Below, piece by piece: positions 6,356 to 64,000 of a stretch of 64,000 nt of DNA; position 1 is the stretch's first letter, and every line of letters starts with the position of its first letter. Position numbers and translations under genes: made by a program. Where the stretch lies: IMG/VR virus record IMGVR_UViG_3300034107_000364; one strand, written 5' to 3'. The stretch is from a virus (Duplodnaviria; Heunggongvirae; Uroviricota; Caudoviricetes). Below the pieces are notes generated by a model that ran no database searches, was not told the DNA's origin, and worked only from the letters and a program-made list of their open reading frames with translations.

Positions 6356-6365
6356 CAAATATATT

Positions 6366-6438: not shown

Positions 6439-6443
6439 CTAAA

Positions 6444-6744: not shown

Positions 6745-6819
6745 GCTTTCTTAGCTCAGTTGGTTCAGAGCGCCTCGTTTACACCGAGGAGGTCACAGGT
6801 TCGAACCCTGTAGAAAGCA
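6745..6819 (+). tRNA. tRNA-Val(TAC)
   Basis: acceptor GCTTTCT/AGAAAGC, anticodon stem CCTCG/CGAGG with loop TTTACAC, T-arm ACAGG-TTCGAAC-CCTGT. Confidence 0.85.
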
Positions 6820-6888
6820 CAGTCGGCGCCCAAAGGACGCAGGACCTGGCCAGAGATTTATTCTTGCAAACTCGATGCCGAAAGTCGA

Positions 6889-6915
6889 GCTGCCGATCTA
6901 CGGGATCGGCTTTAT
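6889..6915 (+). terminator. GC-rich hairpin + T-run (terminator-like) inside tRNA array
   Basis: GCCGATC-tacgg-GATCGGC followed by TTTAT; lies in an unusual GC-rich 90-nt island. Confidence 0.4.
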
Positions 6916-6997
6916 GCCCGAGTGGTGGAATTGGTAGACACACTAGATTTAGGATCTAGCGCCGAGAGGTTTGAGGGTTCGAGTCCCTCCTTGGGTA
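6916..6997 (+). tRNA. tRNA-Leu(TAG)
   Basis: acceptor GCCCGAG/CTTGGGT, D-arm GTGGAATTGGTAGACAC, anticodon stem CTAGA/TCTAG with loop TTTAGGA, long variable arm. Confidence 0.8.
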
Positions 6998-7000
6998 CTA

Positions 7001-7058
7001 TGTTCATTATAAATGAATGTTCATTGCCAATGAACACATGAAAATAATGAACACACAT
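7001..7058. repeat. cluster of 4 alternating TGTTCAT / ATGAACA heptamers (inverted repeats)
   Basis: tgttcattataaatgaatgttcattgccaatgaacacatgaaaataatgaacaca directly upstream of tRNA-His. Confidence 0.5.
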
Positions 7059-7132
7059 GGTGGTTATAGTGTTAGCGGTTAGCACGTCAGTTTGTGGTAC
7101 TGATAGCATGGGTTCGAATCCCATTAATCACC
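7059..7132 (+). tRNA. tRNA-His(GTG) with encoded G-1
   Basis: G-1 then GTGGTTA/TAATCAC, discriminator C, anticodon stem TCAGT/ACTGA with loop TTGTGGT. Confidence 0.85.
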
Positions 7133-7139
7133 CAAAATT

Positions 7140-7224
7140 GGAAGATTGTCAGAGCGGTCTATAGTGCAACTTTGCTAAAGTTGTGGATGTCACAGTCCCG
7201 AAGGTTCGAATCCTTCATCTTCCG
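7140..7224 (+). tRNA. tRNA-Ser(GCT)
   Basis: acceptor GGAAGAT/ATCTTCC, anticodon stem CAACT/AGTTG with loop TTGCTAA, long variable arm, T-arm GAAGG-TTCGAAT-CCTTC. Confidence 0.85.
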
Positions 7225-7329
7225 CAAAAAATGAAACTTTTTTAATTGATCAAGTATAATTATCAAATTAACAAAGTTCTTTAAAATATTAAAGGTTTCT
7301 TACAGCAATTAAAAAGCAATCAGAACCGG

Positions 7330-7420
7330 TACATTGTAGGTTCGAGTCCTACCTCTCCAACAACACAACTATGAAAACTTGGAGAGTGGTGAAATTGGTA
7401 AACACACTGGTAAGCAAAAA
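7330..7420 (+). other. tRNA halves in permuted order: 3'-half-like (T-arm + acceptor CTCTCCA) ~25 nt upstream of complementary 5'-half-like (TGGAGAG + Leu-type D-arm)
   Basis: GTAGG-TTCGAGT-CCTAC-CTCTCCA at 7336-7359 has no 5' partner upstream; TGGAGAG-TG-GTGAAATTGGTAAACAC at 7380-7406 has no 3' partner downstream; the two pair perfectly with each other; flanked by repeated ACAGCAA(A)T motifs. Confidence 0.35.
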
Positions 7421-7629
7421 CAGAAACCTGTAAATTCTTGGGATACCTACAGCAAATACACATCTTCAATCTATAAACTGAAAACCAACGTGTATCCCGT
7501 ATTTTTAAAATATAAAGGATGCTTCCAGCAAATTTAAAAACTTTTATTGGAAAAAGCAAATCAGCATCCTGTTATTTTATTCATTTAACCAGCCGGCTTT
7601 ATTAGATACATATATAAATATTACAATAA

Positions 7630-8322
7630 ATGAAAACACATATAATTTATCTAAGAGGCAATGAATTCTCAGAGACTATGGTAAAAGATACCATAAAGTC
7701 TTTAAATAAATTCGGTATCGAGTTTGAATTATTTGATGGAGTTGTAGGCAGAAAAGGCATTGAAGTTTTAAAATCTTATAATGCAAAACCTTCAGCGTAT
7801 GTTAATATGGTAGATTGGACCGATGGTACTATAGGTTGTTTAGCAAGTCATTATTTATTATGGGACGAGTGTTCTAAACAAGATCAGCCTTTTTTAATTC
7901 TTGAACAAGATGCAGTTTTAGTTAGAGATCCTAGAGAAATATTACACTTAATAGAAAATGCATGTCATTTAGATGCATATTTACCATTTAATAATTCAGG
8001 TTTTATTACAGAACATGAACACTTTGAAGCGTATAATGATGCTATTAAACTTTATACTAGCGGAGTTAAAAAACACCCTATTAGTAGATTTTATGGAGAT
8101 AAATCTATAACTGGAAGTACTTTTAGAGGTGCATATGGATATATAATAACTCCTAAAGGTGCCCAAGAAATCTTAGATTTTATAAATAAAAAAGGTATAT
8201 TTCCAGCAGATGCATGTTTATGTGAAAATGCCACAGATATTCAAAGAGCAAATAGTACATATGTTAGATTAAATCCATTTTTCGAAACATTGGACTTACA
8301 AAGAAAATTTTCATCAAGATAA
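7630..8322 (+). CDS. glycosyltransferase family 25 (LOS/LPS glycosyltransferase, Lic2B/LgtB-like)
   Basis: HIIYLRGNEFSE...GTIGCLASHYLLW...PFLILEQDAVL matches the GT25 signature. Confidence 0.6.
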   Translation: MKTHIIYLRGNEFSETMVKDTIKSLNKFGIEFELFDGVVGRKGIEVLKSYNAKPSAYVNMVDWTDGTIGCLASHYLLWDECSKQDQPFLILEQDAVLVRDPREILHLIENACHLDAYLPFNNSGFITEHEHFEAYNDAIKLYTSGVKKHPISRFYGDKSITGSTFRGAYGYIITPKGAQEILDFINKKGIFPADACLCENATDIQRANSTYVRLNPFFETLDLQRKFSSR

Positions 8323-8326
8323 CCAC

Positions 8327-8400
8327 AGTCATTTAGCTCAGTTGGTTAGAGCGCCTCGCTGATACCGAGGAGGTCGTAAGTTCGAGTCTTACATTGACTA
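8327..8400 (+). tRNA. tRNA-Ile(GAT)
   Basis: D-arm TAGCTCAGTTGGTTAGAGC, anticodon stem CCTCG/CGAGG with loop CTGATAC, T-arm GTAAG-TTCGAGT-CTTAC; starts 5 nt after GT25 stop. Confidence 0.8.
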
Positions 8401-8403
8401 CAT

Positions 8404-8430
8404 AAAAAAAGCCGCAATTGCGGCTTTTTT
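8404..8430 (+). terminator. rho-independent terminator
   Basis: AAGCCGCAATTGCGGCTT hairpin + T6. Confidence 0.7.
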
Positions 8431-8483
8431 AGTTTTATATATTTAAAAGAATATATAGATTATACTCAAAAATTAAAAACAAT

Positions 8484-9515
8484 ATGAAGATTAAAAGTTA
8501 CGAAGGATTTGTTGCTAATAAAAGATTAGTAGAATCTAGAAGACAAGTAATAATTAATGTGCTTGAACAATTCGAAGAAATTAAACCAATTATGAATGAA
8601 GCTCTACTTATAGTTGAGTTTGGTATATTTGATGAGGGTTTTGATAATCTTAACGAAGAAAACCTAATTAGCAAAATGAAGGCTAAATTTGATGCTGCTG
8701 TAGAAGTTGCAAAAGAAAAGGGTAAACAAGCATTGACAAAATCACAAGAAGTTATCATTAAATTAGGTGGTAAAATTGCTTCTATTATTAAACTTATTGT
8801 TGAGAAATTAAAAGAATGGGTTGACGCTGCATGGACAGCTGCAAAATCAGCATATGCATCAGGAGCACAAGCTAAGGTTAAAGAAATTACAGCTGCAATC
8901 GAAAAGAAATCAGAAGAAAGTAAAAATCTTTTATTAAAAGAAGTTAAACAAGGTAAACAAGTTGTATCTGCAACAGTTGGATGGATTACTAGTGGATTTG
9001 TTAAAGATACTGCAACCGCAGCTCAACAAGCCGCAAGTGAAGATGTTAAAGAAGCCTTTGAAATTGCAATATTAGATTCTATTAATGAAGCAGTTATCAA
9101 TGGAGATATTGATTTTACTGATCTATTAAAAGAAAGTGATGCAAATGGACCAAGTATTCCATTCGTATCAGCAATTGCACATAAAATGCACCATATTCCA
9201 CCATTTAATTTATTAGATAAAGTTAAACAAGCTGCTGAAAAAGTTGCTAAAGGAACTCTAGGTAAATTATCATATTATGCTACTGAATTAGCAGGAGCAC
9301 CAGGACCATTTGAATTTATTGCACTTGCAGGTATTATTGGAATTATTGCTGAAGTTCAAGTTAAAGGAGTTGCAAAGCACGCTCTATTACATGCAGTACC
9401 AGGTTTAGGTACGGTAGCATCTATTATATCAAACGTTGCAATGTTATTAGCTGTAATTGGTATCATTGAGGCTGTTATGGGTAAAGAAAAGGATGATGAG
9501 GAAACTGCACACTAA
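8484..9515 (+). CDS. hypothetical protein (343 aa) with CTS-like N-terminus and hydrophobic C-terminal segments
   Basis: MKIKSYEGFVANKRLVE resembles the MKHxKLFEEFxNE leader family; C-terminus GIIGIIAEV...AMLLAVIGIIEAV predicted membrane-active. Confidence 0.55.
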   Translation: MKIKSYEGFVANKRLVESRRQVIINVLEQFEEIKPIMNEALLIVEFGIFDEGFDNLNEENLISKMKAKFDAAVEVAKEKGKQALTKSQEVIIKLGGKIASIIKLIVEKLKEWVDAAWTAAKSAYASGAQAKVKEITAAIEKKSEESKNLLLKEVKQGKQVVSATVGWITSGFVKDTATAAQQAASEDVKEAFEIAILDSINEAVINGDIDFTDLLKESDANGPSIPFVSAIAHKMHHIPPFNLLDKVKQAAEKVAKGTLGKLSYYATELAGAPGPFEFIALAGIIGIIAEVQVKGVAKHALLHAVPGLGTVASIISNVAMLLAVIGIIEAVMGKEKDDEETAH

Positions 9516-9537
9516 TTAAAATAAATTTAAGGTACAT

Positions 9538-9610
9538 AGCGGGTTGGTAGAAGTGGTATCTCGCGAGCCTCATAAGCTCGAGGTCGGGGGTTCGAGTCCC
9601 TCACCCGCAA
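9538..9610 (+). tRNA. tRNA-Met(CAT), atypical D-arm
   Basis: anticodon stem CGAGC/GCTCG with loop CTCATAA, T-arm GGGGG-TTCGAGT-CCCTC, acceptor GCGGGT/ACCCGC with unpaired A1xA72. Confidence 0.6.
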
Positions 9611-9694
9611 CTAATTTCATAACTTCTTAAAATGAATCACATTCATGATATATAATAAAGTACTTATGTACTGATAAAAATATTATAACATGTA

Positions 9695-22329: not shown

Positions 22330-23814
22330 ATGAACCCATTATTTTTAACAGACGGTTACAAAACAGGACATCACCAACAATATCCAAAAGGAACTACGTT
22401 GGTTTATTCTAACTTTACTCCTCGTAGTAACAAGTACGCACCACAAGGTTGCGATCAATTAGTATCATTTGGACAACAAATGGTAGTTAAACAAATTCAC
22501 GAAGCTTTTGAAAAAGATTTCTTTAGTCGTCCTAAAGATGAAGTTTGTGGAGAAATGAAAAGAGAATTGTCAATGTACTTAAATACTGACTATGATGTTA
22601 GTCACTTTGAAGCTTTACATGATTTAGGTTATTTGCCTATTATTGTTAAAACAATCGAAGAAGGTAGTTTAGTACCAATGAGAGTTCCAGTATTGACAAT
22701 CTACAATACACATCCAGATTTTTATTGGATTACAAACTACCTAGAAACAATTATTTCTAACTTGTTATGGAAACCAATGACTTCTGCAACTATTGCACAT
22801 GCATATCGTAAAGTGTTGACTGGATGGCAAGAAAAAACCGATGCTGAAAGATCTTGGTTTATTGATTGGCAAGGACATGATTTCTCAATGAGAGGTCTAG
22901 ATTCTATTGATGCTACTATTAGTTCAGGTCTTGGTCACTTAACAAGTTTCTCAGGTTCAGACAGTTTACCAGCAATCTTCGGAGCTCGTAAGTTTTATGG
23001 AGAAACTGGATTTGTTGCTGGATCTGTGAATGCAACTGAGCACTCAGTTATGTGTGCTGGTAGTAAAGAAGATGAGGTTGGAACATTTAGAAACCTAATG
23101 GAAACATATCCAACAGGAATTCTTTCAATCGTATCAGATACTTGGGACTTATGGAAAGTTTGTACTGAACATATCGTTACATTGAAAGAAGAGATTTTAG
23201 CTCGTGATGGTAAGGTAGTTATTAGACCTGACTCTGGTGATCCAGTTGAAATTATTTGTGGTAAAAAATGGGATGACGAACAAAATCCATATGATGAAAA
23301 TGTAGATGCTATTGAGAAAGGTGTTGTTGAATTATTATGGGATGTATTCGGTGGAGAAATCAATGAACAAGGTTACAAAGTTCTTGACTCTCACATTGGA
23401 GCAATCTACGGAGATTCAATCACAATCGAAAGAGCAAATGAAATCTGTAAGCGTTTAGAGGCAAAAGGATTTGCAAGTACAAATATCGTTTTAGGTGTAG
23501 GTTCATTCACATATCAATTTAATACAAGAGATACATTTGGTTTTGCAATGAAAGCCACTTATGTTGAAGTAAATGGTGAAGGTCGTGAAATCTTTAAAGA
23601 TCCAATCACTGACGATGGTATTAAGAAATCTGCAAAAGGTTTATTGCATGTTGCTAAAATTTTTAATAAAAGTATTAACGATGGTTATATGCTAGTCGAT
23701 CAATGCTCATGGGAAGATGAGAGTAAAGGAATGTTAAAAACTATCTATAAAGATGGAGAGTTTTTAAACCAAACTACCCTTACTGAAATCAGAGAACGTT
23801 TAAGAAATTCATAA
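22330..23814 (+). CDS. nicotinamide phosphoribosyltransferase family (NAMPT/NadV-like; candidate Namat)
   Basis: N-terminal NPLFLTDGYKTGHHQQYP, full-length (494 aa) NAPRTase-fold similarity to NAMPT. Confidence 0.75.
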   Translation: MNPLFLTDGYKTGHHQQYPKGTTLVYSNFTPRSNKYAPQGCDQLVSFGQQMVVKQIHEAFEKDFFSRPKDEVCGEMKRELSMYLNTDYDVSHFEALHDLGYLPIIVKTIEEGSLVPMRVPVLTIYNTHPDFYWITNYLETIISNLLWKPMTSATIAHAYRKVLTGWQEKTDAERSWFIDWQGHDFSMRGLDSIDATISSGLGHLTSFSGSDSLPAIFGARKFYGETGFVAGSVNATEHSVMCAGSKEDEVGTFRNLMETYPTGILSIVSDTWDLWKVCTEHIVTLKEEILARDGKVVIRPDSGDPVEIICGKKWDDEQNPYDENVDAIEKGVVELLWDVFGGEINEQGYKVLDSHIGAIYGDSITIERANEICKRLEAKGFASTNIVLGVGSFTYQFNTRDTFGFAMKATYVEVNGEGREIFKDPITDDGIKKSAKGLLHVAKIFNKSINDGYMLVDQCSWEDESKGMLKTIYKDGEFLNQTTLTEIRERLRNS

Positions 23815-30400: not shown

Positions 30401-30474
30401 GGGGGTGTAGCTCAGTTGGCTAGAGCATCTGCCTTGCACGCAGAGGGTCGCAGGTTCGATTCCTGTCACCTCCA
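30401..30474 (+). tRNA. tRNA-Ala(TGC)
   Basis: acceptor GGGGGTG/CACCTCC with G3-U70 identity pair, D-arm TAGCTCAGTTGGCTAGAGC, anticodon stem TCTGC/GCAGA with loop CTTGCAC. Confidence 0.85.
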
Positions 30475-30481
30475 CTAAAGA

Positions 30482-38196: not shown

Positions 38197-38403
38197 ATGT
38201 CAGAACAAACAACACAAGAAAAACCACAGGTTTCACCTTTCGAAGAAGTGAAAACTATGACCGATGTACAAGCTCTTAATATTTTAATTCAAGCAGCTAA
38301 TGCAGCTCAAGGAGCAGGAGTATTAAGTGTACGAGATTCAGTATTTGTTGCAGCTGCAGCAGAATTGTTAACAAAACCTTTCACAGATAAAAAAGCTAAA
38401 TAA
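38197..38403 (+). CDS. hypothetical protein (68 aa)
   Basis: ORF. Confidence 0.45.
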   Translation: MSEQTTQEKPQVSPFEEVKTMTDVQALNILIQAANAAQGAGVLSVRDSVFVAAAAELLTKPFTDKKAK

Positions 38404-38792
38404 TGAAAATCGAGGTATCAAACGGAGAGATTATTGATAAATTTACTATTTTAGAAATCAAACTTAAAGAGATTTCTGATCCTGAAAAATTAGCAAACAT
38501 TCAAAAAGAGTATGATTCACTTAAATCTGTCGTAGATCACATCTACAATGAAGCTGATGACTATCGCGAATTAGATGTATTACATAAAGATTTATTTAAT
38601 GTAAATAAAACCCTTTGGAATATTGAAGATATGATTCGTGAATGCGAACGTCGAGAATCATTTGGTGAAGACTTCGTTGAATTGGCAAGATCAGTGTATT
38701 ACACAAATGATGACAGATCTGATGTCAAGAAAAAAATCAATTTGTTAACGGGATCTTTATTTGTAGAAGAGAAATCCTATGAATCATACTAA
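38403..38792 (+). CDS. hypothetical protein (129 aa)
   Basis: ORF. Confidence 0.45.
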   Translation: MKIEVSNGEIIDKFTILEIKLKEISDPEKLANIQKEYDSLKSVVDHIYNEADDYRELDVLHKDLFNVNKTLWNIEDMIRECERRESFGEDFVELARSVYYTNDDRSDVKKKINLLTGSLFVEEKSYESY

Positions 38793-38795
38793 TAC

Positions 38796-41700
38796 ATGTC
38801 AAAACAAGTTGCGATATGTATAGATACACCTGCATTAGGTGACACGATAGCAGCAATTCCTACACTTAGGAAGTTAGCTAAAGCGTGTGAGTCACAACTT
38901 ATAGTATTTTCTAGTAAACCTTTCTTATTTGAGGGTCATCCACTTGTGTCAAAAGCATTAAAGTTGGATGACCCTCTTAGATATGACTCCGACATAAAGG
39001 TTTATCGTACATTTATGCCAATCGTTGGCAAAGCATATGATCTAAGAGGTGAACAAGTAGAATTCAGATCTTCTAATATGGATATTAGACAATTTCATGC
39101 AGTTTCATTAGGGTTTAGTTTAACTCAAGATGAAATGGAAATGGATTTGTATATTGAACGTGAAAGAAATCTTGGATTTGAAAACTATGTTATAATACAC
39201 CCAACTTATACCTGGGCAACTAGAACATGGGATCAAGATAAATGGCAAGAACTTGTTGATAAATTAAATGATAGAGGTATTCCAGTGGTTGCGGTTGGCC
39301 GAGATTCTCATGAATTCGGTACATTCTCAATAGACAAACCCGTAATGGATTTGAATATAAAGCTTGGAGTTAACTTACTTAATGATGCAACAAATGATCC
39401 AGCTGAATTAAGATGGATGATGAATCATAAAGCTAGAGCTATAGTAACTATGGATTCTGGTTTATTGCACATTGCAGGAACTACTGACGTAAATATTATT
39501 CAATTAGGTAGTTCAATAGATCCAAAATTAAGAGCACCTTATAGAAAGGGTTCACAAGATTATAAATACAAATATATTGGTGGAAGTTGCGATATTTTCT
39601 GTTCCAGTAATATGAAATACAATATTATTGAACATGGAACTATTCAAGCTGTTCCGCCACAATTATATTGTTTAGAATATAAACCAACATTCGAGTGTCA
39701 TCCTACAGTAGATAAAACATTCGATGCAGTTATAGATTTGTATAATGACTTATTAGTAGACAATGTCTATATGAAACCTAATACCAAAGAAATGACAAAC
39801 AAAACTAAATTACTATTCTTAGCACCACATTTAAGTACAGGAGGCATGCCTCAATTTGTCTTAAAGAGAGTCGAAGCTATGTTAGATGTAAAAGAATATG
39901 AAATTCACTTAGTAGAGTATACACAATATAGTGATATTTACAATGTGCAACGAGATCAACTTATAGAAAAATTAGGTGCTAGATTTCATTCATTAGGATT
40001 CTTAAATTCAATAGACATTACCGAACGAGGTGAAAGATTAAAGGCAAAGATTTTAGAAATAAACCCAGATATTATTCATATTGATGAATGTCCAGAATCA
40101 TTTGATGGATTTAATAAAATTGATCAAAGTGCAATGGAATGGCTTTACAATAAGCAATGGAAAATTGTAGAAACATCTCACAATATTTGGTTTGATCCAA
40201 ACGATAAGATTAATGATCCAGATATGTACATGATGTGTACTCCATATCATTTAGAAACTTTCGGAAATAGAGATGGTTTAAAACCAGTTGTAGAATATCC
40301 TATATTAAATCAAAAACCTTCAGCGTTTGATAAAGCAAAATCAAGAGCTAAATTAGGTTTAGCCATTGATAAGACACATATATTAAATGTAGGTCTTTGG
40401 ACACAAGGTAAGAATCAAGCAGAAGGTGTTGATATTGCCAGAATAGTTGAAGCTAGATTTCCTGGAAAGTATCAATTTCATTTCGTAGGTAATCAAGCAG
40501 AAAACTTCGAACAATATTGGGGACCAATTATGAAGAAGTTGCCAAGTAATGTTACTGTATGGGGTGAGAGAAACGATGTTGACGTCTTTATGAGTGCATG
40601 TGACGCATTTATGTTTAACTCAACATGGGAGTGTAGTCCACTCGCACTACGTGAAGCAATCGGTCATGGTCTAATCACATTCTCTAGGGACTTAGAGCAA
40701 TATAAAGACATGTTTACACCTTACATTGTCCCATTCACAAACGATCTCCATGAAAATGTTGACCAATTAATCAAAACACTCAAATCATCCGAGGCACAAG
40801 GAAAAAATATCCCAGCTGATGATCTAAAACGTTTCACTGATCAGCATATCCAATGGTACCAACAATGTTTAACTACCCCACGAGGCCCTCAAAAAGCTCC
40901 GATATACAAACAACCTGAATGGACATTAGAATATCAAGATGGTCCGAAATTAACGATCAAGGAAACTGGAGGCACTCAATTACGGGCCGAGTTCTACGAT
41001 CATGAAGATCTAGTATGGAACGCAACAGACTTACAGGCAGGAAACTGGTACAAGCCCGCAAGAAATTGGTGGACTCAGTGGACTGTTAAGGTTTACAGTA
41101 ATGACCAACTAGTTCATTCAGAACGTCTGAGCCTTGAAGGCCAGGAACTTACAGTGGAAATGGCAAGTTCATCACTTGGAGACACATTGAGCTTCATGGG
41201 ACAGCTGCACACAGTGATAGACACACATAAGCTATCACGATTATATGTGAAGACACACAAACCCTGGCTGTTTGACAAAGCATGGTATAGCTCAAAGGGC
41301 ATAGACATCATTGACTGGTCAGTGCCTAACAAGGGTGCGCTAATCACTATCGGAGTCTTTTACACCATGGAAGAACCATGGAAACGTTCAGAACATAAAT
41401 ACGACTGGAGGACTATACCTCTGGGGAAAATCGCCTCAGATCGCTTAGGTACTGAGTACGTAGAACAAAGACCTCAACTAGCGCGCGAATTCTTGATCAA
41501 GTCTACTGCAAAAAAACGCTCTATTGTAATCGCTACCCAAAGTACAGCGCAAGCTAAGTACTGGAATAATCCTACTGGATGGCAAGAAACAATTGACTGG
41601 TGTAATAGTAAAGAGATTAGTGTGTACCATGCTAGTAAAGAAGGTAGTCAATTAAAAGGAGTTAAACAATTGCCAGAAGAGTTGGCATTAGTAGCAGGAG

Positions 41701-42002
41701 CTATTAATGAAGCCGAACTGTTTATTGGAATTTCCTCTGGCTTATCTTGGTTCGCATGGGCACTTGGAGCCAAAGTAATTGTTATTAGTGGCTTTACAGA
41801 TCCTTATGTGGAATTTGAATCAGCTATCTATATTAACAATCATAAAGTATGTCATGGTTGTTGGGGTTGGGATACATTTGACAAAGGTGACTGGAATTGG
41901 TGCCCTTTATGGAAAGGAACACATCGTCAATTTGAGTGTACTAAAACCATTGGATCAGACAGAGTTATTGCTGTCATAAATAAAGAATTATATGGAGAAT
42001 AG
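38796..42002 (+). CDS. giant multidomain glycosyltransferase: GT9(heptosyltransferase-like)-GT4-GT9
   Basis: N-term ICIDTPALGDTIAAIPTLRKL (GT9), middle LFLAPHLSTGGMPQFV ... FMFNSTWECSPLALREAIGHGL (GT4 E-x7-E region), C-term MASSSLGDTLSFMGQL ... GISSGLSWFAWALGAKVIV (second GT9). Confidence 0.6.
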   Translation: MSKQVAICIDTPALGDTIAAIPTLRKLAKACESQLIVFSSKPFLFEGHPLVSKALKLDDPLRYDSDIKVYRTFMPIVGKAYDLRGEQVEFRSSNMDIRQFHAVSLGFSLTQDEMEMDLYIERERNLGFENYVIIHPTYTWATRTWDQDKWQELVDKLNDRGIPVVAVGRDSHEFGTFSIDKPVMDLNIKLGVNLLNDATNDPAELRWMMNHKARAIVTMDSGLLHIAGTTDVNIIQLGSSIDPKLRAPYRKGSQDYKYKYIGGSCDIFCSSNMKYNIIEHGTIQAVPPQLYCLEYKPTFECHPTVDKTFDAVIDLYNDLLVDNVYMKPNTKEMTNKTKLLFLAPHLSTGGMPQFVLKRVEAMLDVKEYEIHLVEYTQYSDIYNVQRDQLIEKLGARFHSLGFLNSIDITERGERLKAKILEINPDIIHIDECPESFDGFNKIDQSAMEWLYNKQWKIVETSHNIWFDPNDKINDPDMYMMCTPYHLETFGNRDGLKPVVEYPILNQKPSAFDKAKSRAKLGLAIDKTHILNVGLWTQGKNQAEGVDIARIVEARFPGKYQFHFVGNQAENFEQYWGPIMKKLPSNVTVWGERNDVDVFMSACDAFMFNSTWECSPLALREAIGHGLITFSRDLEQYKDMFTPYIVPFTNDLHENVDQLIKTLKSSEAQGKNIPADDLKRFTDQHIQWYQQCLTTPRGPQKAPIYKQPEWTLEYQDGPKLTIKETGGTQLRAEFYDHEDLVWNATDLQAGNWYKPARNWWTQWTVKVYSNDQLVHSERLSLEGQELTVEMASSSLGDTLSFMGQLHTVIDTHKLSRLYVKTHKPWLFDKAWYSSKGIDIIDWSVPNKGALITIGVFYTMEEPWKRSEHKYDWRTIPLGKIASDRLGTEYVEQRPQLAREFLIKSTAKKRSIVIATQSTAQAKYWNNPTGWQETIDWCNSKEISVYHASKEGSQLKGVKQLPEELALVAGAINEAELFIGISSGLSWFAWALGAKVIVISGFTDPYVEFESAIYINNHKVCHGCWGWDTFDKGDWNWCPLWKGTHRQFECTKTIGSDRVIAVINKELYGE

Positions 42003-42879
42003 AAAAGCTGTAGTTACAGGTGGAGCTGGTTTTATTGGTTCATATCTGGTTAAAGAATTACTAAACAATGGATGGTCAGTAATTGTACTTGATAATTTTA
42101 GTACTGGTGACATGGACAATTTAGAACCACATCCAAATTTAATTATTGAAGCTACTGATATTATTAGTAGTAAATTGCCAACTTATAAATTTGATACTCT
42201 ATTTCATTTAGCTGCACCGATTAGTGTACCTGAAAGCATAGAACAACCAATGAAATATTGGAATGGCATATGTGTTGCAAGTAGAAGAGTTATGAGTTGG
42301 GCTTATGAAATGGGAGCTACTTCAATGGTAGCTGCATCCACTGCTGCGGTCTATGGTGATTCAGAACAAGTGCCATTAAAAGAGAGTGATACACCTAATC
42401 CGATGAGTCCTTATGCCGAATTTAAATTGGAAATGGAACACATGATGATGAGTTATAATAAACCTCAGTTTAAGTGTACAGCTCTAAGATTTTTTAATGT
42501 CTTTGGTGAAGGTCAAAGGGCTACTGGTGGATACCGAAGTGCAGTGCCCATATTCTTACAACAATATGAATCTTATCAACCTATTACCGTAACTGGTGAT
42601 GGCACACAAACTAGAGATTGGATTTATGTTAAAGATGTGGTAAATGCTATTATAATGAGTAGTCAGGCCGAATTTAAGACCACTATGCCAATTTATAATG
42701 TTGGATCTGGTACAGAAACTCAAGTTATTGAAGTGGCTGAGGCATTTGGTGGTGAAATCAAACATGTAGAAAAAAGAGAGGAACCTATGCGTTCCGCTGC
42801 AGATATTACAAAAATCACTAGGCAATTAGGTTGGAAACCAGAAACAAACCTATTATCCTGGATAAAATCAATTAAATGA
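41992..42879 (+). CDS. NAD-dependent sugar epimerase/dehydratase (SDR family, UDP-sugar 4-epimerase-like)
   Basis: VTGGAGFIGS Rossmann motif, YAEFK (YxxxK). Confidence 0.7.
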   Translation: MENRKAVVTGGAGFIGSYLVKELLNNGWSVIVLDNFSTGDMDNLEPHPNLIIEATDIISSKLPTYKFDTLFHLAAPISVPESIEQPMKYWNGICVASRRVMSWAYEMGATSMVAASTAAVYGDSEQVPLKESDTPNPMSPYAEFKLEMEHMMMSYNKPQFKCTALRFFNVFGEGQRATGGYRSAVPIFLQQYESYQPITVTGDGTQTRDWIYVKDVVNAIIMSSQAEFKTTMPIYNVGSGTETQVIEVAEAFGGEIKHVEKREEPMRSAADITKITRQLGWKPETNLLSWIKSIK

Positions 42880-43554: not shown

Positions 43555-43845
43555 ATGAGCACTACAGAAAAATTTCTAATGCTATTTTCAGACTTCGAGA
43601 TGATCGTTGTTGAAAAAACGAATGAGGTAAAAATAGACAAGAGTAATACTCAACATTCGATTGGCGCTAATCAAACAAAGAGTGAACTAAAGAAAGTACT
43701 TAAGCGATTGACTGAAGAATACAGCAGAGCTAAAAAGTCATTTAAACAAAATAAATTAAGTCGTCAAGAATTATTTGATTTCGAATGGAGATTATTTGAA
43801 ATACAAGAAGAGATTAAAAGATTAGATGACGAAACTGCGGCATAA
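43555..43845 (+). CDS. hypothetical coiled-coil protein (96 aa)
   Basis: ORF. Confidence 0.45.
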   Translation: MSTTEKFLMLFSDFEMIVVEKTNEVKIDKSNTQHSIGANQTKSELKKVLKRLTEEYSRAKKSFKQNKLSRQELFDFEWRLFEIQEEIKRLDDETAA

Positions 43846-44333
43846 TGAAACACCTAAAAAAATATGATCAATTTATCAACGAGAAATATCTAGACACTAG
43901 ATATTCAGCTGGTCTTGCGATTGTGTTTGATGGTAAAATTTTGTTAGGTCAATCTAGAGGTAGAAAAGAAGGAACTGGTTATGGTATATCTAAAGGTGGC
44001 ATCGAAGAAGGTGAATCACATTTAGATGCTGCTATCAGAGAAACTTATGAAGAGTTCGGTATTAAAGTTCCTAAATCTTTAATAAGTAAAATTGAACGTA
44101 CATTTGTTTTAACTTCTAGAAAGTATAAGTATAATAAAGTTATTTATTATTTTATAGTTGAAATAGATGACCTGTCTAAAATAGGACTTAAAGATCTAGT
44201 GGTACCTAAAGGGCAATTACAGCGTGAAGAAATTGATAATGCCAAATTTATGGACAAAATAGAAGCTTCACAAGTTATAATGTTAAGTCAACAAGTGGTT
44301 CTACAAAATTTAAGTGCAATGGGACTAATATGA
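43845..44333 (+). CDS. Nudix hydrolase with CTS-like N-terminal leader
   Basis: Nudix box GGIEEGESHLDAAIRETYEEFGI; N-terminus MKHLKKYDQFINE. Confidence 0.65.
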   Translation: MKHLKKYDQFINEKYLDTRYSAGLAIVFDGKILLGQSRGRKEGTGYGISKGGIEEGESHLDAAIRETYEEFGIKVPKSLISKIERTFVLTSRKYKYNKVIYYFIVEIDDLSKIGLKDLVVPKGQLQREEIDNAKFMDKIEASQVIMLSQQVVLQNLSAMGLI

Positions 44334-61421: not shown

Positions 61422-63101
61422 ATGGATATCGGTAACATCGAAAATTATAGTTTTATACACGGACTTCATAGAAACATGGTTAATGGAAAATGGTTTCCAT
61501 TACATCCGCATACTTTAGGAAGACCACTAACCCATTCTGAAATGGACTATAATTTGTTGTATTCTCAACAAACTATGGCAGGTTGGAGAATATTTGGTCA
61601 GAATACTAATTTAACTCTTTCTGATAATGAATTAGAAAAATCATTAATATTTTGGAAAATTAGTGCATTAGATACTGATTACGACAGATATGTAGCCGCT
61701 GGTTATACTTCAGGTCAATATATTTGGATTACGCCTCAATATGATTGTAATGATTTTTATGTTAATTTTGCATCTAAAACAGATGCAATCGATAATTGTG
61801 GAGGATTTATTATTACGTTAGCATCAACTACAAATGCAACGCAAATTCCAGATCCAACACCAATACCAACTACTGTATATAGCAGTGGAAGTGGAAGTGG
61901 TGGAGGTTCAGGTATAACACCGACTGCAACACCAATTCCACCAACTGCAACACCAATTCCACCAACTGCAACTGCAATTAGTTCAGGTGGAGGTTCAGGT
62001 GATGGAGGTGCTGGTATAACACCAACATCTACACCAGATAGTGGTAGTGGAGGAGGAAGTGGAGGAAGTGGTTTACCAGATCCTACTGCAACATTAGATG
62101 AATCTATTAGACCTACACCGACTGCAACATTAGATGAATCTATTAGACCTACACCAACACCAACAGATGTTGAAGTTTTACCAGATCCAACTGCAACTGA
62201 AGTGATCCCAACTGCAACGCCAGTTCCAGATCCTACTGCAACAGAAGCAATAAGACCTACCGCAACACCAATTATAGATGGTCGATTAAATTATGAATTT
62301 ATAGTTTGCTTTAATCCTGAAGGAAAAGCACAACCTAATTATATATGTACAGCTGAAACATTAACTGAAGCTGGATTTACTATTATACCACCAACTCTTG
62401 ACGATACAATTACAATAGAAGGTGAATTAAATACAGGTGCTGTTTACATTTTTAGAAGTGTAACACCGAGTACTGATTTAAGTCTTGAGAGAATATTAAC
62501 ACATAATATATTTGGATGCGAAGGTGTTAGAACACCAGATCCAGATCCAATTGAGGGAAGACCAACTGCAACACCAGTTCCTGCACCGACTGCAACGCCA
62601 GTTCCTGCACCGACTGCAACAGCTATTCCTGCACCGACTGCAACACCAGTTATTCCAACTGCAACACCAGTTCCTGCACCAACTGCAACGCTAATTCCTG
62701 CACCAATTGCAACTGAGATACCAATAGAACCAACATCTACACCAGATAGTGGTAGTGGAGGAGAAGCTATAAGACCTACTCCAACACCTGAAGATTTAGG
62801 TAAAACAGGTTTTTGTCATTTCATATTCGTACCAGAAACTGAACAAACAGAAGGTTTCGGTTTAAATTATAATCTTAATGGAATACAAAATACACTATTC
62901 AGTGAACTTATGTCTGCACCAGCTGAAATAAATGGAACACGAGGTATTGTATATAATATATGTAGCACATTGCAACCTAATTATTGGGATAGCATAAATA
63001 ACTTTATAATGGCATATCCAGAAGGCGTATATGCATTACCGATGGGCGGAGAATGTGCATCAAACTTTGAATGTCGATATGAAGGCGAACCTTTTAGATA
63101 A
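61422..63101 (+). CDS. Pro/Thr-rich repeat protein (559 aa), putative fibre/adhesin
   Basis: PTATP(I/V)P(A/P/D) octapeptide tandem repeats and GSG runs between globular segments. Confidence 0.55.
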   Translation: MDIGNIENYSFIHGLHRNMVNGKWFPLHPHTLGRPLTHSEMDYNLLYSQQTMAGWRIFGQNTNLTLSDNELEKSLIFWKISALDTDYDRYVAAGYTSGQYIWITPQYDCNDFYVNFASKTDAIDNCGGFIITLASTTNATQIPDPTPIPTTVYSSGSGSGGGSGITPTATPIPPTATPIPPTATAISSGGGSGDGGAGITPTSTPDSGSGGGSGGSGLPDPTATLDESIRPTPTATLDESIRPTPTPTDVEVLPDPTATEVIPTATPVPDPTATEAIRPTATPIIDGRLNYEFIVCFNPEGKAQPNYICTAETLTEAGFTIIPPTLDDTITIEGELNTGAVYIFRSVTPSTDLSLERILTHNIFGCEGVRTPDPDPIEGRPTATPVPAPTATPVPAPTATAIPAPTATPVIPTATPVPAPTATLIPAPIATEIPIEPTSTPDSGSGGEAIRPTPTPEDLGKTGFCHFIFVPETEQTEGFGLNYNLNGIQNTLFSELMSAPAEINGTRGIVYNICSTLQPNYWDSINNFIMAYPEGVYALPMGGECASNFECRYEGEPFR

Positions 63102-63126: not shown

Positions 63127-64000
63127 ATGGCAAACATTAATAATGGAACAGTTACAGTACAAGTAGTTGGAGGAGTCGGACCTTACCAATATACTTTACT
63201 GAACGCAGGTACAAATCAACCGATACCTAACAATGCATATCCGACATTTCAAAATCCTGTCAATAACATTGTATCCAATACGTTTACATTTGGTAATGCA
63301 ACCGATAATACGGGTAATAGTGGTTTAGCACCGGGTCAATATAAAGTTAAAATAATTGACTCTAATTTATGTGAAACCGTTTCAAATACTTTATTTGTTA
63401 CTGATATTACACCTATACCACCTACTGCAACACCAGTTCCTGTTCCTACGGCAACAATTTTGCCAACTGCGACTGCGATTATTCCGACTGCAACACCAGT
63501 TCCAGATCCTACAGCAACTGAAGTGATCCCGACTGCAACGCCAGTTCCTGCACCTACAGCAACAGCTATACCAGATCCAACTGCAACGCCAGTTCCAGAT
63601 CCTACAGCAACTGAAGTGATCCCGACTGCAACGCCAGTTCCAGATCCTACAGCGACTGAAGTTCCTGTACCTACAGCAACTGAAGTGATCCCGACTGCAA
63701 CGCCAGTTCCAGATCCTACAGCGACTGAAGTGATCCCAACTGCAACGCCAGTTCCAGATCCTACAGCGACTGAAGTTCCTGCGCCTACAGCGACAGCAAT
63801 TCCAGATCCGACTGCAACGCCAGTTCCTGCACCTACAGCGACAGCTATTCCTGCACCGACTGCAACGCCAGTTCCTGCACCGACTGCAACTTCAATTCCA
63901 GAACCGACTGCAACGCCAGTTCCTGCACCGACTGCAACTTCAATTCCAGAACCGACTGCAACGCCAGTTCCTGCACCGACTGCAACTTCAATTCCAGAAC
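63127..64000 (+). CDS. SprB-repeat-like domain + long PTATPVP(A/D) tandem-repeat protein (3' partial, runs off window)
   Basis: NGTVTVQVVGGVGPYQYTLL resembles SprB/gliding-adhesin repeat (G.GPYxY); then >20 copies of PTATxxPx; no stop before window end. Confidence 0.5.
   Translation, partial: MANINNGTVTVQVVGGVGPYQYTLLNAGTNQPIPNNAYPTFQNPVNNIVSNTFTFGNATDNTGNSGLAPGQYKVKIIDSNLCETVSNTLFVTDITPIPPTATPVPVPTATILPTATAIIPTATPVPDPTATEVIPTATPVPAPTATAIPDPTATPVPDPTATEVIPTATPVPDPTATEVPVPTATEVIPTATPVPDPTATEVIPTATPVPDPTATEVPAPTATAIPDPTATPVPAPTATAIPAPTATPVPAPTATSIPEPTATPVPAPTATSIPEPTATPVPAPTATSIPE
63410..64000 (+). repeat. 24-nt periodic in-frame tandem repeat (actgcaacgccagttcctgcaccg variants)
   Basis: direct reading of sequence; encodes PTATPVPA/PTATEVIP units. 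Confidence 0.8.

What the first reader, a model, noticed from the sequence alone, without database searches (positions are those of the whole stretch)
38796..42002. Triple-domain glycosyltransferase with a GC-rich mosaic segment
One 1068-aa ORF fuses GT9-like, GT4-like and a second GT9-like domain. Fusions of this kind are rare. The segment around 40860-41560, at the start of the C-terminal GT9 domain, is visibly more GC-rich than the flanking AT-rich coding sequence (many ctg/ggc/ccc/cag codons). This suggests recent acquisition of that module from a higher-GC donor.
Basis: seen in the sequence. Interest (0 to 1): 0.55.

Follow-up and report, generated by a model that had tools for sequence, protein, structure and literature searches.

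The report
Phage triple glycosyltransferase with GC island
A large uncultured marine phage encodes one protein made of three sugar-transferring enzymes, the last resembling a bacterial enzyme that attaches heptose to proteins, and its GC-rich stretch is real but is an old, stably maintained feature of the gene family and not a recent import.

Summary
ORF 38796-42002 (1068 aa) is GT9 + GT4 + a second GT9-type domain, and it contains the strongest codon-third-position GC anomaly in the window (codons 570-923, nt 40503-41564; synonymous GC3 0.36 vs 0.16; core aa ~680-900).

The explanation offered (recent acquisition of a module from a higher-GC donor) is not supported:
- The whole protein has collinear full-length relatives from 96% to ~48% identity.
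- The tract and its flanks give congruent trees.
- No donor was found in viral, metagenomic or cellular collections.
- The tract sits at the same codons in more than 30 distinct relatives whose synonymous sites are saturated (dS ≥ 1).
- In deep lineages the G/C sites are independently placed, yet the regional excess persists.
- Recent GC→AT and AT→GC changes in the tract are balanced.

So this is a maintained compositional equilibrium. Its cause is unresolved. Codon optimisation, an overlapping ORF and a structured RNA were tested and rejected.

The C-terminal domain is a TibC/Aah-type protein O-heptosyltransferase homolog. The β-barrel, catalytic Asp and iron-finger cysteines are conserved. 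The oligomerisation thumb and the adenine-contacting Arg are missing. The fusion is common in marine viromes but has no full-length match in cultured phages.

The parts
38796..42002 (+). Complete ORF, 1068 aa: three-domain glycosyltransferase (GT9 - GT4 - TibC/Aah-type GT9).
   Evidence: dN/dS is 0.04-0.19 in all segments against close relatives.
38796..39746 (+). Domain A (aa 1-317): GT9 heptosyltransferase-like GT-B domain without a β-barrel. The LGDT motif (aa 14-17) is invariant. A second conserved Cys4 cluster is present (C265, C269, C292, C301).
   Evidence: Pfam PF01075 at 43.8 bits. Weak match to WaaC structures, E 0.013. 21% identity to the domain-3 core with the LGDT motifs aligned. 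Residue conservation: LGDT 41/41; the four Cys in 42 of the 42-45 sequences with a residue there.
39747..39797 (+). Linker between A and B (aa 318-334). This is the modular junction of the family. Relatives insert 220-550 aa here (some carry FkbM methyltransferase, GT8 or GT34 domains), or split the gene here, or lack domain A.
   Evidence: pLDDT below 50. Segment mapping of 120 homologs. Split or absent domain A. Pfam domains of the long variants.
39798..40874 (+). Domain B (aa 335-693): GT4-type, presumably retaining, GT-B glycosyltransferase. The E-x7-E motif is E612/E620.
   Evidence: Pfam PF00534 and PF13692. Foldseek hits to BshA, MshA, HepE and WaaG. E612 conserved 63/63 and E620 62/63.
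40896..41135 (+). Domain 3, N-terminal β-barrel (aa ~701-780), homologous to TibC residues ~15-97.
   Evidence: phmmer alignment to 4RAP. Predicted β-strands at 708-777. TM-score 0.77-0.82 to TibC.
41136..41831 (+). Domain 3 catalytic GT-B core (aa ~781-1012). D796 corresponds to the TibC catalytic base D110. T917, K921 and W985 correspond to TibC T226, K230 and W305. S980 sits at the stereoselectivity position (TibC P300, AAH S294). The β-hairpin thumb is deleted.
   Evidence: Residue roles come from PMC4358343.
41850..41939 (+). Iron-finger-like motif (aa 1019-1048): C1019, C1022, C1036, C1048 correspond to TibC Cys339, 342, 358 and 370.
   Evidence: Alignment. Invariant in alignment A2. Present in every sequence that covers the position, 57-58 of 63. 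Roles from PMC4358343. The model has low pLDDT here.
40503..41564 (+). GC3-rich tract (codons 570-923): synonymous GC3 0.36 vs 0.16, and GC at codon positions 1+2 0.44 vs 0.38 in segment B. It spans the C-lobe of GT4, the inter-domain linker, the β-barrel and the N-lobe of domain 3.
40833..41495 (+). Core of the tract (aa ~680-900), shared with deep lineages (GC3s 0.42-0.59 in L129, L133, L137 and L167).
38403..38792 (+). DUF6165 gene immediately upstream, a conserved partner of the cassette.
   Evidence: Pfam PF19662 at 58 bits. Conserved position in relatives.
41992..42879 (+). NAD-dependent sugar epimerase/dehydratase (SDR). Its start overlaps the glycosyltransferase stop by 11 nt. It is a conserved partner of the cassette.
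   Evidence: Pfam PF01370 at 173 bits. Best NCBIfam match is GalE, below its cutoff. Synteny.

Best explanation
The ORF is a conserved trifunctional glycosyltransferase of an uncultured marine large-phage lineage (related contigs reach ~240 kb). It sits in a small sugar cassette: DUF6165, the glycosyltransferase, sometimes an FkbM methyltransferase, and an SDR epimerase.

Shown:
- Domain A is a GT9 heptosyltransferase-like unit with its own Cys4 cluster.
- Domain B is a GT4 enzyme with an intact E-x7-E motif.
- Domain 3 is a full-length homolog of the bacterial autotransporter heptosyltransferase TibC/Aah. It keeps the β-barrel, the catalytic Asp, three of the four sugar-binding residues and the four iron-finger cysteines.
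- Domain 3 lacks the β-hairpin thumb that builds the TibC dodecamer ring, and it lacks the adenine-contacting Arg.

Inferred mechanism: domain 3 O-glycosylates a protein acceptor with a heptose-like sugar, and domains B and A extend or diversify the glycan. The partner enzymes supply or modify the sugars. The acceptor is unknown. Virion or secreted repeat proteins are candidates.

The GC-rich tract is not a recently imported module. It is a long-lived regional compositional feature of this gene lineage. It raises G/C at synonymous sites and also at codon positions 1 and 2. It is at equilibrium and has been kept through complete synonymous turnover. It is present wherever the gene sits in the window-type neighbourhood and absent from the one clade where the gene lies next to the tail sheath. 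What maintains it is not established. A regional difference in fixation bias fits best. That could be GC-biased repair at a recombination-prone stretch, or weak selection on base composition.
For: Architecture and residues: TIGR04414 208 bits, cutoff 200; TibC E 2.8e-31 over aa 701-1063; TM-score 0.77-0.82 to TibC. Residue roles from PMC4358343.

Conserved unit and cassette.

Tract is real.

Tract is shared:
- Every sequence at least 65% identical in the tract (more than 30 distinct sequences) has GC3s 0.30-0.40, against 0.09-0.22 in the other segments and 0.13-0.19 in flanking genes.
- Lineages only 46-57% identical in the tract also carry it: L129, L133, L137, L136, L166, L167, L142/L144.

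Same history as the flanks: congruent trees, and segment C is never disproportionately similar in any of 120 homologs.

Not a decaying relic:
- dS is 1.0-1.4 among carriers.
- In deep pairs the S/W state at synonymous sites is independent (OR 0.8-1.8, not significant). My estimate for a half-decayed relic is OR ~5, and shallow pairs give 4.7.
- Polarised recent changes are balanced: 47 S>W vs 53 W>S, and 13 vs 17 with strict outgroups. The implied equilibrium GC3 is 0.35-0.36.

Amino-acid composition is shifted as well: GC12 0.42-0.47 vs 0.34-0.38.

Context association.
Against: - No biochemical evidence exists for any of the three activities, the donor sugar or the acceptor.
- TIGR04414 is passed only narrowly.
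- Loss of the thumb and of the Arg286 equivalent means that oligomeric state and nucleotide specificity may differ from TibC.
- No autotransporter-like substrate gene lies nearby.
- The equilibrium inference rests on metagenome-assembled sequences and parsimony polarisation. The apparent lower G/C loss rate in the tract did not survive strict polarisation (p 0.27).
- The tract-negative clade differs in both genomic position and phage lineage, so dependence on locus and dependence on lineage cannot be separated.
- A donor that was a close, unsampled, GC-richer sister lineage would not show up in the trees.
Confidence: 0.62

Rival explanations
1. One reading: the segment was recently acquired as a module from a higher-GC donor and has not yet been ameliorated.
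For: There is a real, sharp GC3 step at codon ~570. Codon usage in the tract is unlike the rest of the genome, including CTG, CGC and ATC. Amino-acid composition is also GC-shifted.
Against: - All segments share the same nearest relatives as one unit.
- The tract is present at the same codons in more than 30 distinct relatives, including lineages 46-57% identical.
- Trees are congruent.
- dS is at least 1 among carriers.
- No donor appears in protein, viral, metagenome or genome searches.
- There is no GC>AT excess.
- The tract boundaries do not match domain boundaries.
Confidence: 0.03
2. An ancient gene-conversion patch from an unsampled GC-richer sister lineage entered the common ancestor of the tract-bearing lineages and is still slowly decaying.
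For: Distribution is clade-limited: the tract is absent from the L004 group and from the distant two-domain relatives. The 5' boundary in the window clade is sharp. A sister-lineage donor would leave the trees congruent.
Against: - Deep carriers have independent G/C site patterns (OR ~1), whereas a relic predicts OR ~5.
- Recent substitutions are balanced, with equilibrium GC3 0.35-0.36, close to the observed value.
- The excess scales with the background: 0.50 on 0.33 in L167 and 0.36 on 0.14 in the window.
Confidence: 0.1
3. GC-biased gene conversion, or another GC-ward repair bias, at a recombination-prone stretch tied to this genomic neighbourhood keeps G/C elevated at all codon positions.
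For: - The shift is general, not codon-class specific: NNC, NNG, four-fold sites, CTN and CGN all rise.
- GC at positions 1+2 rises too.
- The tract has the highest dN/dS of the gene in most pairwise comparisons.
- The tract is at equilibrium.
- It is absent where the gene has moved next to the sheath gene.
- Recombination inside the gene is evident from discordant A versus B-D identities among close relatives and from uneven dS between segments.
Against: There is no direct evidence that recombination is more frequent in the tract than elsewhere in the gene. dS patterns among the closest genomes show no enrichment in segment C. Locus and lineage effects are confounded. To my knowledge GC-biased conversion has not been established for phages.
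Confidence: 0.25
4. Selection on the mRNA or on translation maintains the tract, through optimal codons, slow-translation pausing for folding of the β-barrel and N-lobe, or mRNA stability.
For: The tract persists at equilibrium across lineages. The strongest shifts are in NNC two-fold codons, which match phage-encoded GNN tRNAs. The core coincides with the β-barrel plus N-lobe.
Against: - Highly expressed structural genes in a related phage show NNC up but four-fold G/C down (0.05-0.06). The tract has four-fold G/C up (0.26-0.31) and G-ending codons up.
- The L004-group proteins keep the same architecture and catalytic residues but have no tract.
- G/C excess is just as high at residues conserved between deep lineages.
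- There is no excess RNA structure: mean z is -0.14.
Confidence: 0.12
5. An overlapping coding or non-coding element (alternate-frame gene, antisense gene, structured RNA, repeat) constrains the sequence.
For: An antisense stop-free run of ~70-109 codons recurs in one frame in the window's clade.
Against: No frame is open across the tract; the longest runs are 51-116 of 354 codons, in different frames in different lineages. There is no Rfam match. Folding z-scores are near zero. There is no site-specific conservation of third positions in deep pairs.
Confidence: 0.03
6. Functional rival: the enzyme modifies host lipopolysaccharide or another cell-surface glycan (superinfection exclusion or receptor masking), not a protein.
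For: GT9 is mainly an LPS-core heptosyltransferase family, and domain A's nearest structures are WaaC and WaaF. WaaG is among the GT4 fold hits. Relatives add GlmS-like, UDP-glucose dehydrogenase and PAP2 genes. The adenine-contacting Arg and the thumb of TibC are missing.
Against: Domain 3 matches the protein-glycosylating subfamily specifically. It passes TIGR04414 at 208 bits, against 49.8 bits for LPS heptosyltransferase I. It also keeps the BAHT-specific β-barrel and iron finger.
Confidence: 0.3

Closest known systems
TibC / Aah bacterial autotransporter heptosyltransferases (BAHT family; PDB 4RAP, 4RB4; NCBIfam TIGR04414)
   Same: Window aa 701-1063 align with TibC residues 15-385 (E 2.8e-31; ~26-28% identity in the Foldseek alignments; TM-score 0.77-0.82). 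Shared features: the N-terminal β-barrel, the catalytic Asp (D796 = D110), T917/K921/W985 (= T226/K230/W305), the ATQST-QAKYWNN motif, and all four iron-finger cysteines.
   Different: - Here the domain is the C-terminal third of a three-enzyme fusion encoded by a phage.
- The β-hairpin thumb needed for the dodecamer ring is deleted.
- The Arg286 equivalent (adenine contact) is missing.
- Ser sits at the stereoselectivity position, as in Aah and unlike TibC.
- No autotransporter substrate gene is adjacent.
- The best cellular homologs are only 27-47% identical.
LPS-core heptosyltransferases WaaC / WaaF (GT9; PDB 2GT1, 6DFE, 1PSW)
   Same: Domain A passes Pfam GT9 and aligns weakly with the C-lobe of WaaC. 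It has the N-terminal G-D motif typical of the family.
   Different: Similarity is very low (E 0.013). Domain A carries a conserved Cys4 cluster (C-x3-C-x22-C-x8-C) after the C-lobe that I did not find aligned to WaaC. It is fused to two further glycosyltransferases.
Retaining GT4 glycosyltransferases (BshA, MshA, HepE, WaaG)
   Same: Domain B has the GT-B fold, matches Pfam Glycos_transf_1, and has an invariant E-x7-E motif.
   Different: Sequence identity is 12-16%. Donor and acceptor are unknown. The domain is embedded between two GT9-type domains.
Multi-enzyme capsule polymerases (e.g. PDB 8QOY, Actinobacillus pleuropneumoniae serotype 3)
   Same: One polypeptide combines several glycosyltransferase domains. 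8QOY is a Foldseek hit over 853 aligned columns.
   Different: TM-score is only 0.25-0.26 and identity 12%. The domain types and order differ, and there is no evidence here for polymerase activity.
Intragenic GC mosaics from host-phage recombination (described for cyanophage psbA; cited from my own knowledge, not checked here)
   Same: It is a compositionally distinct patch inside a phage auxiliary gene.
   Different: Here there is no cellular or viral donor, no phylogenetic incongruence, and no decay signal. The patch is stable across lineages with saturated synonymous sites.
Microcystis phage Mel-JY01 CDS WWT39291.1, annotated 'methyltransferase FkbM'
   Same: It is the only cultured-phage protein with a TibC-like C-terminal domain (33.6% identity over window aa 711-1052). 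It is also a long multi-domain protein (1226 aa) and lies near a structural-protein gene.
   Different: The N-terminal modules differ. The TibC-like part is not reflected in its annotation. Similarity is distant.

Membership tests
BAHT (TibC/Aah protein O-heptosyltransferases) | Scores above the curated cutoff of the family model TIGR04414. | tested here: met
   208 bits vs cutoff 200 over aa 730-1063. The margin is narrow. LPS heptosyltransferase models score at most 50 bits.
BAHT (TibC/Aah protein O-heptosyltransferases) | N-terminal flattened β-barrel preceding the GT-B core (TibC residues 1-97; required for activity). | tested here: met
   Aligned to TibC residues 15-97. Predicted β-strands at 708-777 with pLDDT mostly above 84. 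TM-score 0.77-0.82 to whole TibC chains.
BAHT (TibC/Aah protein O-heptosyltransferases) | Catalytic base Asp110. | tested here: met
   D796 aligns with D110, which is Ala in the 4RB4 chain. D796 is invariant in 60/60 sequences covering it.
BAHT (TibC/Aah protein O-heptosyltransferases) | Sugar-binding residues Thr226, Lys230 and Trp305. | tested here: met
   T917, K921 and W985 align with them and are invariant. Roles from PMC4358343.
BAHT (TibC/Aah protein O-heptosyltransferases) | Arg286 contacting adenine N1 (basis of specificity for the ADP-activated donor). | tested here: not met
   In the phmmer alignment Arg286 falls in a 2-residue gap of the window sequence, and no Arg is conserved nearby. 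The alignment in this helix-loop could be shifted.
BAHT (TibC/Aah protein O-heptosyltransferases) | Iron finger: four cysteines (Cys339, 342, 358, 370). | tested here: met
   C1019, C1022, C1036 and C1048 align with them and are invariant. Iron binding itself cannot be tested here.
   There is a 9-residue deletion exactly at the thumb. The region is a short loop in all seven representative lineages inspected. No hairpin appears in the model between strands 942-945 and 956-958.
BAHT (TibC/Aah protein O-heptosyltransferases) | Dodecameric ring assembly. | not testable with these tools
   The monomer model has pTM 0.42. Absence of the thumb argues against a TibC-like ring.
BAHT (TibC/Aah protein O-heptosyltransferases) | Genetic linkage to an autotransporter substrate (tibA, aidA). 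| tested here: not met
   The immediate neighbours are DUF6165, an SDR epimerase, an endonuclease and an endolysin. No autotransporter domain was found in the scanned ORFs. Not every ORF in the window was scanned.
BAHT (TibC/Aah protein O-heptosyltransferases) | Transfers heptose from ADP-heptose to Ser of a protein. | not testable with these tools
   This needs an enzyme assay or glycoproteomics.
GT9 (Pfam PF01075), domain A | Profile match above the gathering score, and the N-terminal G-D catalytic motif. | tested here: met
   43.8 bits vs cutoff 22. LGDT (aa 14-17) aligns with the LGDT of domain 3 and is invariant 41/41.
GT4 (Pfam PF00534 / PF13692), domain B | Profile match above the gathering score, E-x7-E motif, and GT-B fold. 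| tested here: met
   35.2 and 31.6 bits vs cutoffs 26.4 and 27. E612 conserved 63/63 and E620 62/63. Foldseek hits to BshA, MshA, HepE and WaaG at E ~1e-11 to 1e-12.
Recently acquired compositional mosaic (horizontal import of a gene segment) | Composition departs from the host genome. | tested here: met
Recently acquired compositional mosaic (horizontal import of a gene segment) | The segment has a different phylogenetic history from its flanks, or is absent from close relatives. | tested here: not met
   Trees are congruent. The tract is present in all relatives at least 65% identical and in several deep lineages. Segment identities are proportional in 120 homologs.
Recently acquired compositional mosaic (horizontal import of a gene segment) | An identifiable donor with higher similarity in the segment. 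| tested here: not met
   None was found in the tract-only protein search, cultured phages, viral or metagenome contigs, or 185,579 species genomes. The protein search is limited by its word index.
Recently acquired compositional mosaic (horizontal import of a gene segment) | Ongoing amelioration (net GC>AT flux; shared ancestral G/C sites). | tested here: not met
   Changes are balanced: 47 vs 53 and 13 vs 17. G/C sites are independent in deep pairs.

The most novel reading that the evidence does not exclude
A ~1-kb stretch inside a phage gene is held at roughly twice the background synonymous G/C content, with shifted amino-acid composition, by a locus-bound GC-ward fixation bias such as GC-biased gene conversion at a recombination hot spot. 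It persists through complete synonymous turnover and disappears when the gene relocates. That would be a natural, replicated example of biased conversion shaping phage genes. It lies in the acceptor-side half of a phage TibC-like protein glycosyltransferase.
Probability: 0.2. Interest if true: 0.75.

Novelty: new variant of a known kind. Interest (0 to 1): 0.45.

Why it matters
First, TibC/Aah-type enzymes are known as virulence-associated protein O-heptosyltransferases of Gram-negative bacteria. I found no paper in the searchable library linking them to phages. Here a complete homolog is fused to two other glycosyltransferases, and the fusion is widespread in marine viromes. This points to phage-directed protein or surface glycosylation in the ocean and offers a thumb-less natural variant of the fold.

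Second, the GC-rich tract is a caution for genome scans. A sharp intragenic GC step was read as recent horizontal transfer, but comparative data show a stable equilibrium. If its cause is a regional fixation bias, more than 30 independently sampled lineages, plus a clade without it, make the question directly testable with population data.

Tried and rejected
- **Trp/Met artefact.** Excluding these codons leaves GC3s at 0.36 vs 0.16.
- **Overlapping ORF.** None spans the tract.
- **Known RNA family or structured RNA.** No Rfam hit, and folding z-scores are near zero.
- **Donor search.** Tract-only protein search, cultured phages by DNA and protein, viral and metagenome scans, and a genome scan with a domain-3 profile. 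Only the same family or distant cellular homologs (27-47%) turned up.
- **Import from the GC-richer L005/L007 lineage.** Tract identity to them is lower than flank identity, and the trees are congruent.
- **Translational selection.** The codon-class pattern differs from that of capsid and sheath genes.
- **First polarisation attempt.** Three taxa with saturated outgroups gave unreliable results. It was replaced by singleton tests in tight clusters.
- **Lower G/C loss rate in the tract.** Significant but not under strict outgroup polarisation, so I dropped the claim.
- **Placing the phage among cultured phages.** DNA search of 19 kb, plus ligase and NAMPT protein searches, found no close relative.
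- **Annotating the large downstream ORFs as candidate acceptors.** Pfam and PHROGs gave nothing.
- **Literature on virion glycosylation.** The search returned nothing relevant.

Full report
**1. The observation**

The ORF is as described: 38796..42002 on the + strand, 1068 aa. Pfam finds three domains:
- Glyco_transf_9 at aa 127-251 (43.8 bits when the segment is scanned alone).
- Glycos_transf_1 and Glyco_trans_1_4 at aa 513-671.
- Glyco_transf_9 again at aa ~903-1004 (23.1 bits, just above the cutoff of 22).

Total GC climbs from ~0.30 to 0.44-0.45 around 40800-41600. The rise is mainly at third codon positions. It survives removal of Met and Trp codons: GC3s is 0.356 in the tract and 0.158 in the rest of the gene. 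A two-change-point likelihood fit places the tract at codons 570-923 (nt 40503-41564), with LLR 23.3 against a maximum of 13.9 in 200 permutations.

Of 405 100-codon windows over all + strand ORFs of at least 100 aa, the top eight by GC3 are all in this gene. The other ORFs have mean 0.173, sd 0.058 and max 0.36. The other GC-rich parts of the window have different causes. A 25-gene tRNA array accounts for ~1.8-9.6 kb. Pro/Thr-repeat proteins account for 62-64 kb, where GC at positions 1+2 is high and GC3 is low.

**2. The genome**

All genes in the window are on one strand, and GC is ~31%. The window also carries 25 tRNAs, an ATP-dependent DNA ligase, NAMPT, a NUDIX gene and an amidase endolysin.

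No cultured phage matches at the DNA level. The ligase is ~31% identical and NAMPT ~53% identical to their best phage hits. Syntenic relatives lie on marine metagenome contigs of up to ~240 kb.

This is an uncultured marine large-phage lineage. Only one related clade (the L004 group) is demonstrably T4-like, with Gp23, gp13 and sheath genes.

**3. The protein**

*Domain 3 (aa 701-1063).*
- NCBIfam places aa 730-1063 in TIGR04414, the Aah/TibC autotransporter O-heptosyltransferase model (208 bits, cutoff 200). LPS heptosyltransferase models score at most 50 bits.
- phmmer against PDB sequences aligns aa 701-1063 with TibC residues 15-385 of 406 (E 2.8e-31).
- An AlphaFold2 model built on 33 homologs has mean pLDDT 80 and pTM 0.42. 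It shows three folded units separated by low-confidence linkers at 318-334 and ~694-707, with predicted β-strands at 708-777.
- Foldseek returns TibC chains first (TM-score 0.77-0.82 normalised to TibC, E ~1e-24), followed by GT4 enzymes (BshA, MshA, HepE, WaaG).

Mapping the residue roles from the TibC structural paper (PMC4358343) onto the alignment gives:

| TibC feature | Window residue | Status |
|---|---|---|
| Catalytic base D110 | D796 | conserved |
| T226, K230, W305 (sugar binding) | T917, K921, W985 | conserved |
| Cys339, 342, 358, 370 (iron finger) | C1019, C1022, C1036, C1048 | conserved |
| P300 (stereoselectivity) | S980 | Ser, as in Aah |
| β-hairpin thumb (F265/V266) | 9-residue deletion | missing |
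| R286 (adenine contact) | falls in a gap | missing |

The conserved residues are invariant across the family. The thumb region is a short loop in the seven representative lineages inspected.

*Domain B.* The GT4 E-x7-E motif is kept (E612 63/63, E620 62/63).

*Domain A.* It is a distant GT9 (WaaC E 0.013) and 21% identical to the domain-3 core. Its LGDT motif is invariant. It has its own conserved Cys4 cluster at C265, C269, C292 and C301.

All segments are under purifying selection, with dN/dS 0.04-0.19.

**4. The family**

The protein search returned 1295 hits. Full-length collinear relatives run from 96% (P0001) through 75-83% to 48-57% identity.

Mapping four segments (A 1-330, B 331-569, C 570-923, D 924-1068) onto 120 homologs shows that B, C and D are always collinear. 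The variable point is the A|B junction:
- Longer proteins (1270-1630 aa) carry 220-550 extra residues there. Some include FkbM methyltransferase, GT8 or GT34 domains.
- Several ~739-aa forms have domain A as a separate upstream ORF.
- L006 lacks domain A.

Segment C is the least conserved segment in almost every lineage beyond the closest relatives, and it is never disproportionately similar.

The cassette DUF6165 - glycosyltransferase - (FkbM) - SDR epimerase is conserved. Some relatives add a single GT9, a GlmS-like enzyme, UDP-glucose dehydrogenase and PAP2.

In cultured phages only partial hits exist. One is a 1226-aa Microcystis phage Mel-JY01 protein annotated as FkbM methyltransferase, whose C-terminus is TibC-like. 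In 185,579 species genomes the best matches to domain 3 are 27-47% identical. So the fusion is rare among cultured organisms and common in marine viromes.

**5. Is the tract a recent import?**

No, for five reasons.

(a) *It is shared.* Among 63 distinct genes at least 45% identical, every sequence at least 65% identical in the tract (more than 30) has tract GC3s 0.30-0.40. Their other segments are at 0.09-0.22 and their flanking genes at 0.13-0.19. Several lineages only 46-57% identical in the tract also carry it:

| Lineage | Tract GC3s | Flank GC3s |
|---|---|---|
| L129 | 0.36 | 0.15 |
| L133 | 0.36 | 0.15 |
| L137 | 0.37 | 0.16 |
| L136 | 0.35 | 0.20 |
| L166 | 0.31 | 0.21 |
| L167 | 0.50 | 0.33 |
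| L142/L144 | 0.39 | 0.25 |

The shared core is aa ~680-900, and the 570-680 shoulder is more lineage-specific.

(b) *It has the same history as its flanks.* Neighbour-joining trees from tract columns and from B+D columns give the same relationships among the major lineages.

(c) *No donor was found*.

(d) *Synonymous sites are saturated among carriers.* dS is 1.0-1.4. For deep pairs the G/C-versus-A/T state at third positions of identically encoded residues is independent (OR 0.8-1.8, n = 70-160). My estimate for a half-decayed relic is OR ~5, and shallow pairs give 4.7.

(e) *Recent changes are balanced.* Polarised as singletons in seven tight sub-clusters, they give 47 S>W vs 53 W>S, implying an equilibrium GC3 of 0.36 against 0.33 observed at the sites used. 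With strict outgroup confirmation the counts are 13 vs 17.

An apparent two-fold lower G/C loss rate in the tract was not significant under the stricter test, so I do not claim it.

**6. What maintains the tract?**

This is unresolved. Four candidates were tested and found wanting:
- **Codon optimisation.** The capsid and sheath genes of a related phage raise NNC but lower four-fold G/C to 0.05-0.06. The tract raises NNC, NNG, four-fold G/C, CTN and CGN together.
- **Overlapping gene**.
- **Known or structured RNA**.
- **Host-phage exchange**.

The remaining facts are these:
- GC at codon positions 1+2 is also raised: 0.42-0.47, against 0.34-0.38 in the tract-negative clade and in most distant relatives.
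- The tract has the highest dN/dS in most comparisons.
- The excess scales with the background.
- It tracks context. All tract-bearing lineages have the orf349 - amidase - DUF6165 - GT - epimerase neighbourhood. The tract-negative clade has the gene next to the tail sheath.

These fit a regional fixation bias tied to locus or lineage, for example GC-biased conversion at a recombination-prone stretch. They fit a constraint intrinsic to the protein less well. I have no direct evidence for a recombination hot spot, and locus and lineage are confounded.

**7. Mechanism of the enzyme (inferred)**

By homology, domain 3 should transfer a heptose-like sugar to hydroxyl groups of a protein acceptor. 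Domains B and A would add further sugars. The SDR epimerase, and in relatives the FkbM methyltransferase, would tailor the donors or the glycan.

Loss of the thumb predicts a different quaternary structure from the TibC dodecamer. Loss of the Arg286 equivalent leaves the nucleotide part of the donor uncertain.

The acceptor is unknown. Two ORFs ~20 kb downstream carry long Pro/Thr-rich repeats and are candidates, but this is speculation. Modification of host LPS or another surface glycan remains a serious rival.

**8. Verdict**

The domain reading is correct.

Two things remain:
- A widespread, undescribed phage variant of a known enzyme kind: a TibC-type domain in a three-enzyme fusion.
- An unexplained but well-documented stable intragenic GC island.

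Interest is moderate.

Noticed in passing
window 61422-63101 and 63127-64000 (the second ORF runs off the window end): Two ORFs carry long Pro/Thr-rich tandem repeats (PTATPVPDPTATEVI, PTATPVPAPTATAIP, GSGGGSG). They explain the GC-rich end of the window (GC at positions 1+2 is 0.51, GC3 0.11, negative GC skew). The second ORF starts with a near-threshold SprB repeat (27.7 bits, cutoff 28). Mucin-like linkers of this kind are candidate O-glycosylation acceptors.
   Followed up: partly
window 1760-9611 and 30401-30475: There are 25 tRNA genes, 24 of them in a loose array. This array causes the GC-rich island at ~5-7 kb.
   Followed up: partly
window 38700-39100: Predicted RNA folding is strongly non-random at the 5' end of the glycosyltransferase gene (z = -4.6 for 38800-38999, -3.4 and -2.9 for the adjacent windows). 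This is unrelated to the GC tract.
   Followed up: no
window 39747-39797 (aa 318-334); L133, L136, L166, L007 (insertions); L013, L129, L137 (split); L006 (absent): The A|B linker is the modular hot spot of the family. Relatives insert 220-550 aa there (some with FkbM methyltransferase, GT8 or GT34 domains), encode domain A as a separate upstream ORF, or lack it. Close relatives also show discordant identities between segment A and segments B-D (for example P0012 vs P0002), which indicates recombination near this junction.
   Followed up: partly
L206 3397-7077 (Microcystis phage Mel-JY01, PP395634.1 4750-8430): A 1226-aa CDS annotated 'methyltransferase FkbM' contains a C-terminal TibC-like domain (33.6% identity to window aa 711-1052) that its annotation does not mention. 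It lies near a 'structural protein' gene. It is the only cultured-phage handle on this domain.
   Followed up: partly
window 38796-39746 (domain A, C265/C269/C292/C301): A second conserved Cys4 cluster (C-x3-C-x22-C-x8-C) follows the C-lobe of domain A, in 42 of the 42-45 sequences with a residue at each position. It may be a second metal finger analogous to the TibC iron finger. The model has low pLDDT there.
   Followed up: partly
window 41992-42002: The epimerase start codon overlaps the end of the glycosyltransferase ORF by 11 nt. This suggests translational coupling within the cassette.
   Followed up: no
glycosyltransferase gene outside codons 570-923, in the window's clade (alignment of L001-L141): Among recent singleton synonymous changes, AT>GC outnumber GC>AT by 193 to 81, even though GC3 there is only ~0.12-0.16. 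This hints at an AT-ward fixation bias (or purging of G/C-ending variants) in the bulk of the gene. It could also be a polarisation or assembly artefact.
   Followed up: partly
L001 338-670; L005 82-1674: Flanking genes in relatives carry the CHU_C domain, which I know as a Bacteroidota type IX secretion sorting domain (not checked here). Together with the SprB-like repeat in the window, this weakly suggests a Bacteroidota host.
   Followed up: no
window 22330-23814 and 43845-44333; L001 16776-17174: NAD-salvage-type genes are present: NAMPT/NAPRTase and NUDIX in the window, and a cytidylyltransferase-like gene in a relative.
   Followed up: no
window 41114-41347 (minus strand): An antisense stop-free run of ~70-109 codons recurs in the same frame in the window's clade. 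It is probably a by-product of higher GC. It covers less than a quarter of the tract and is shorter in deep lineages.
   Followed up: partly
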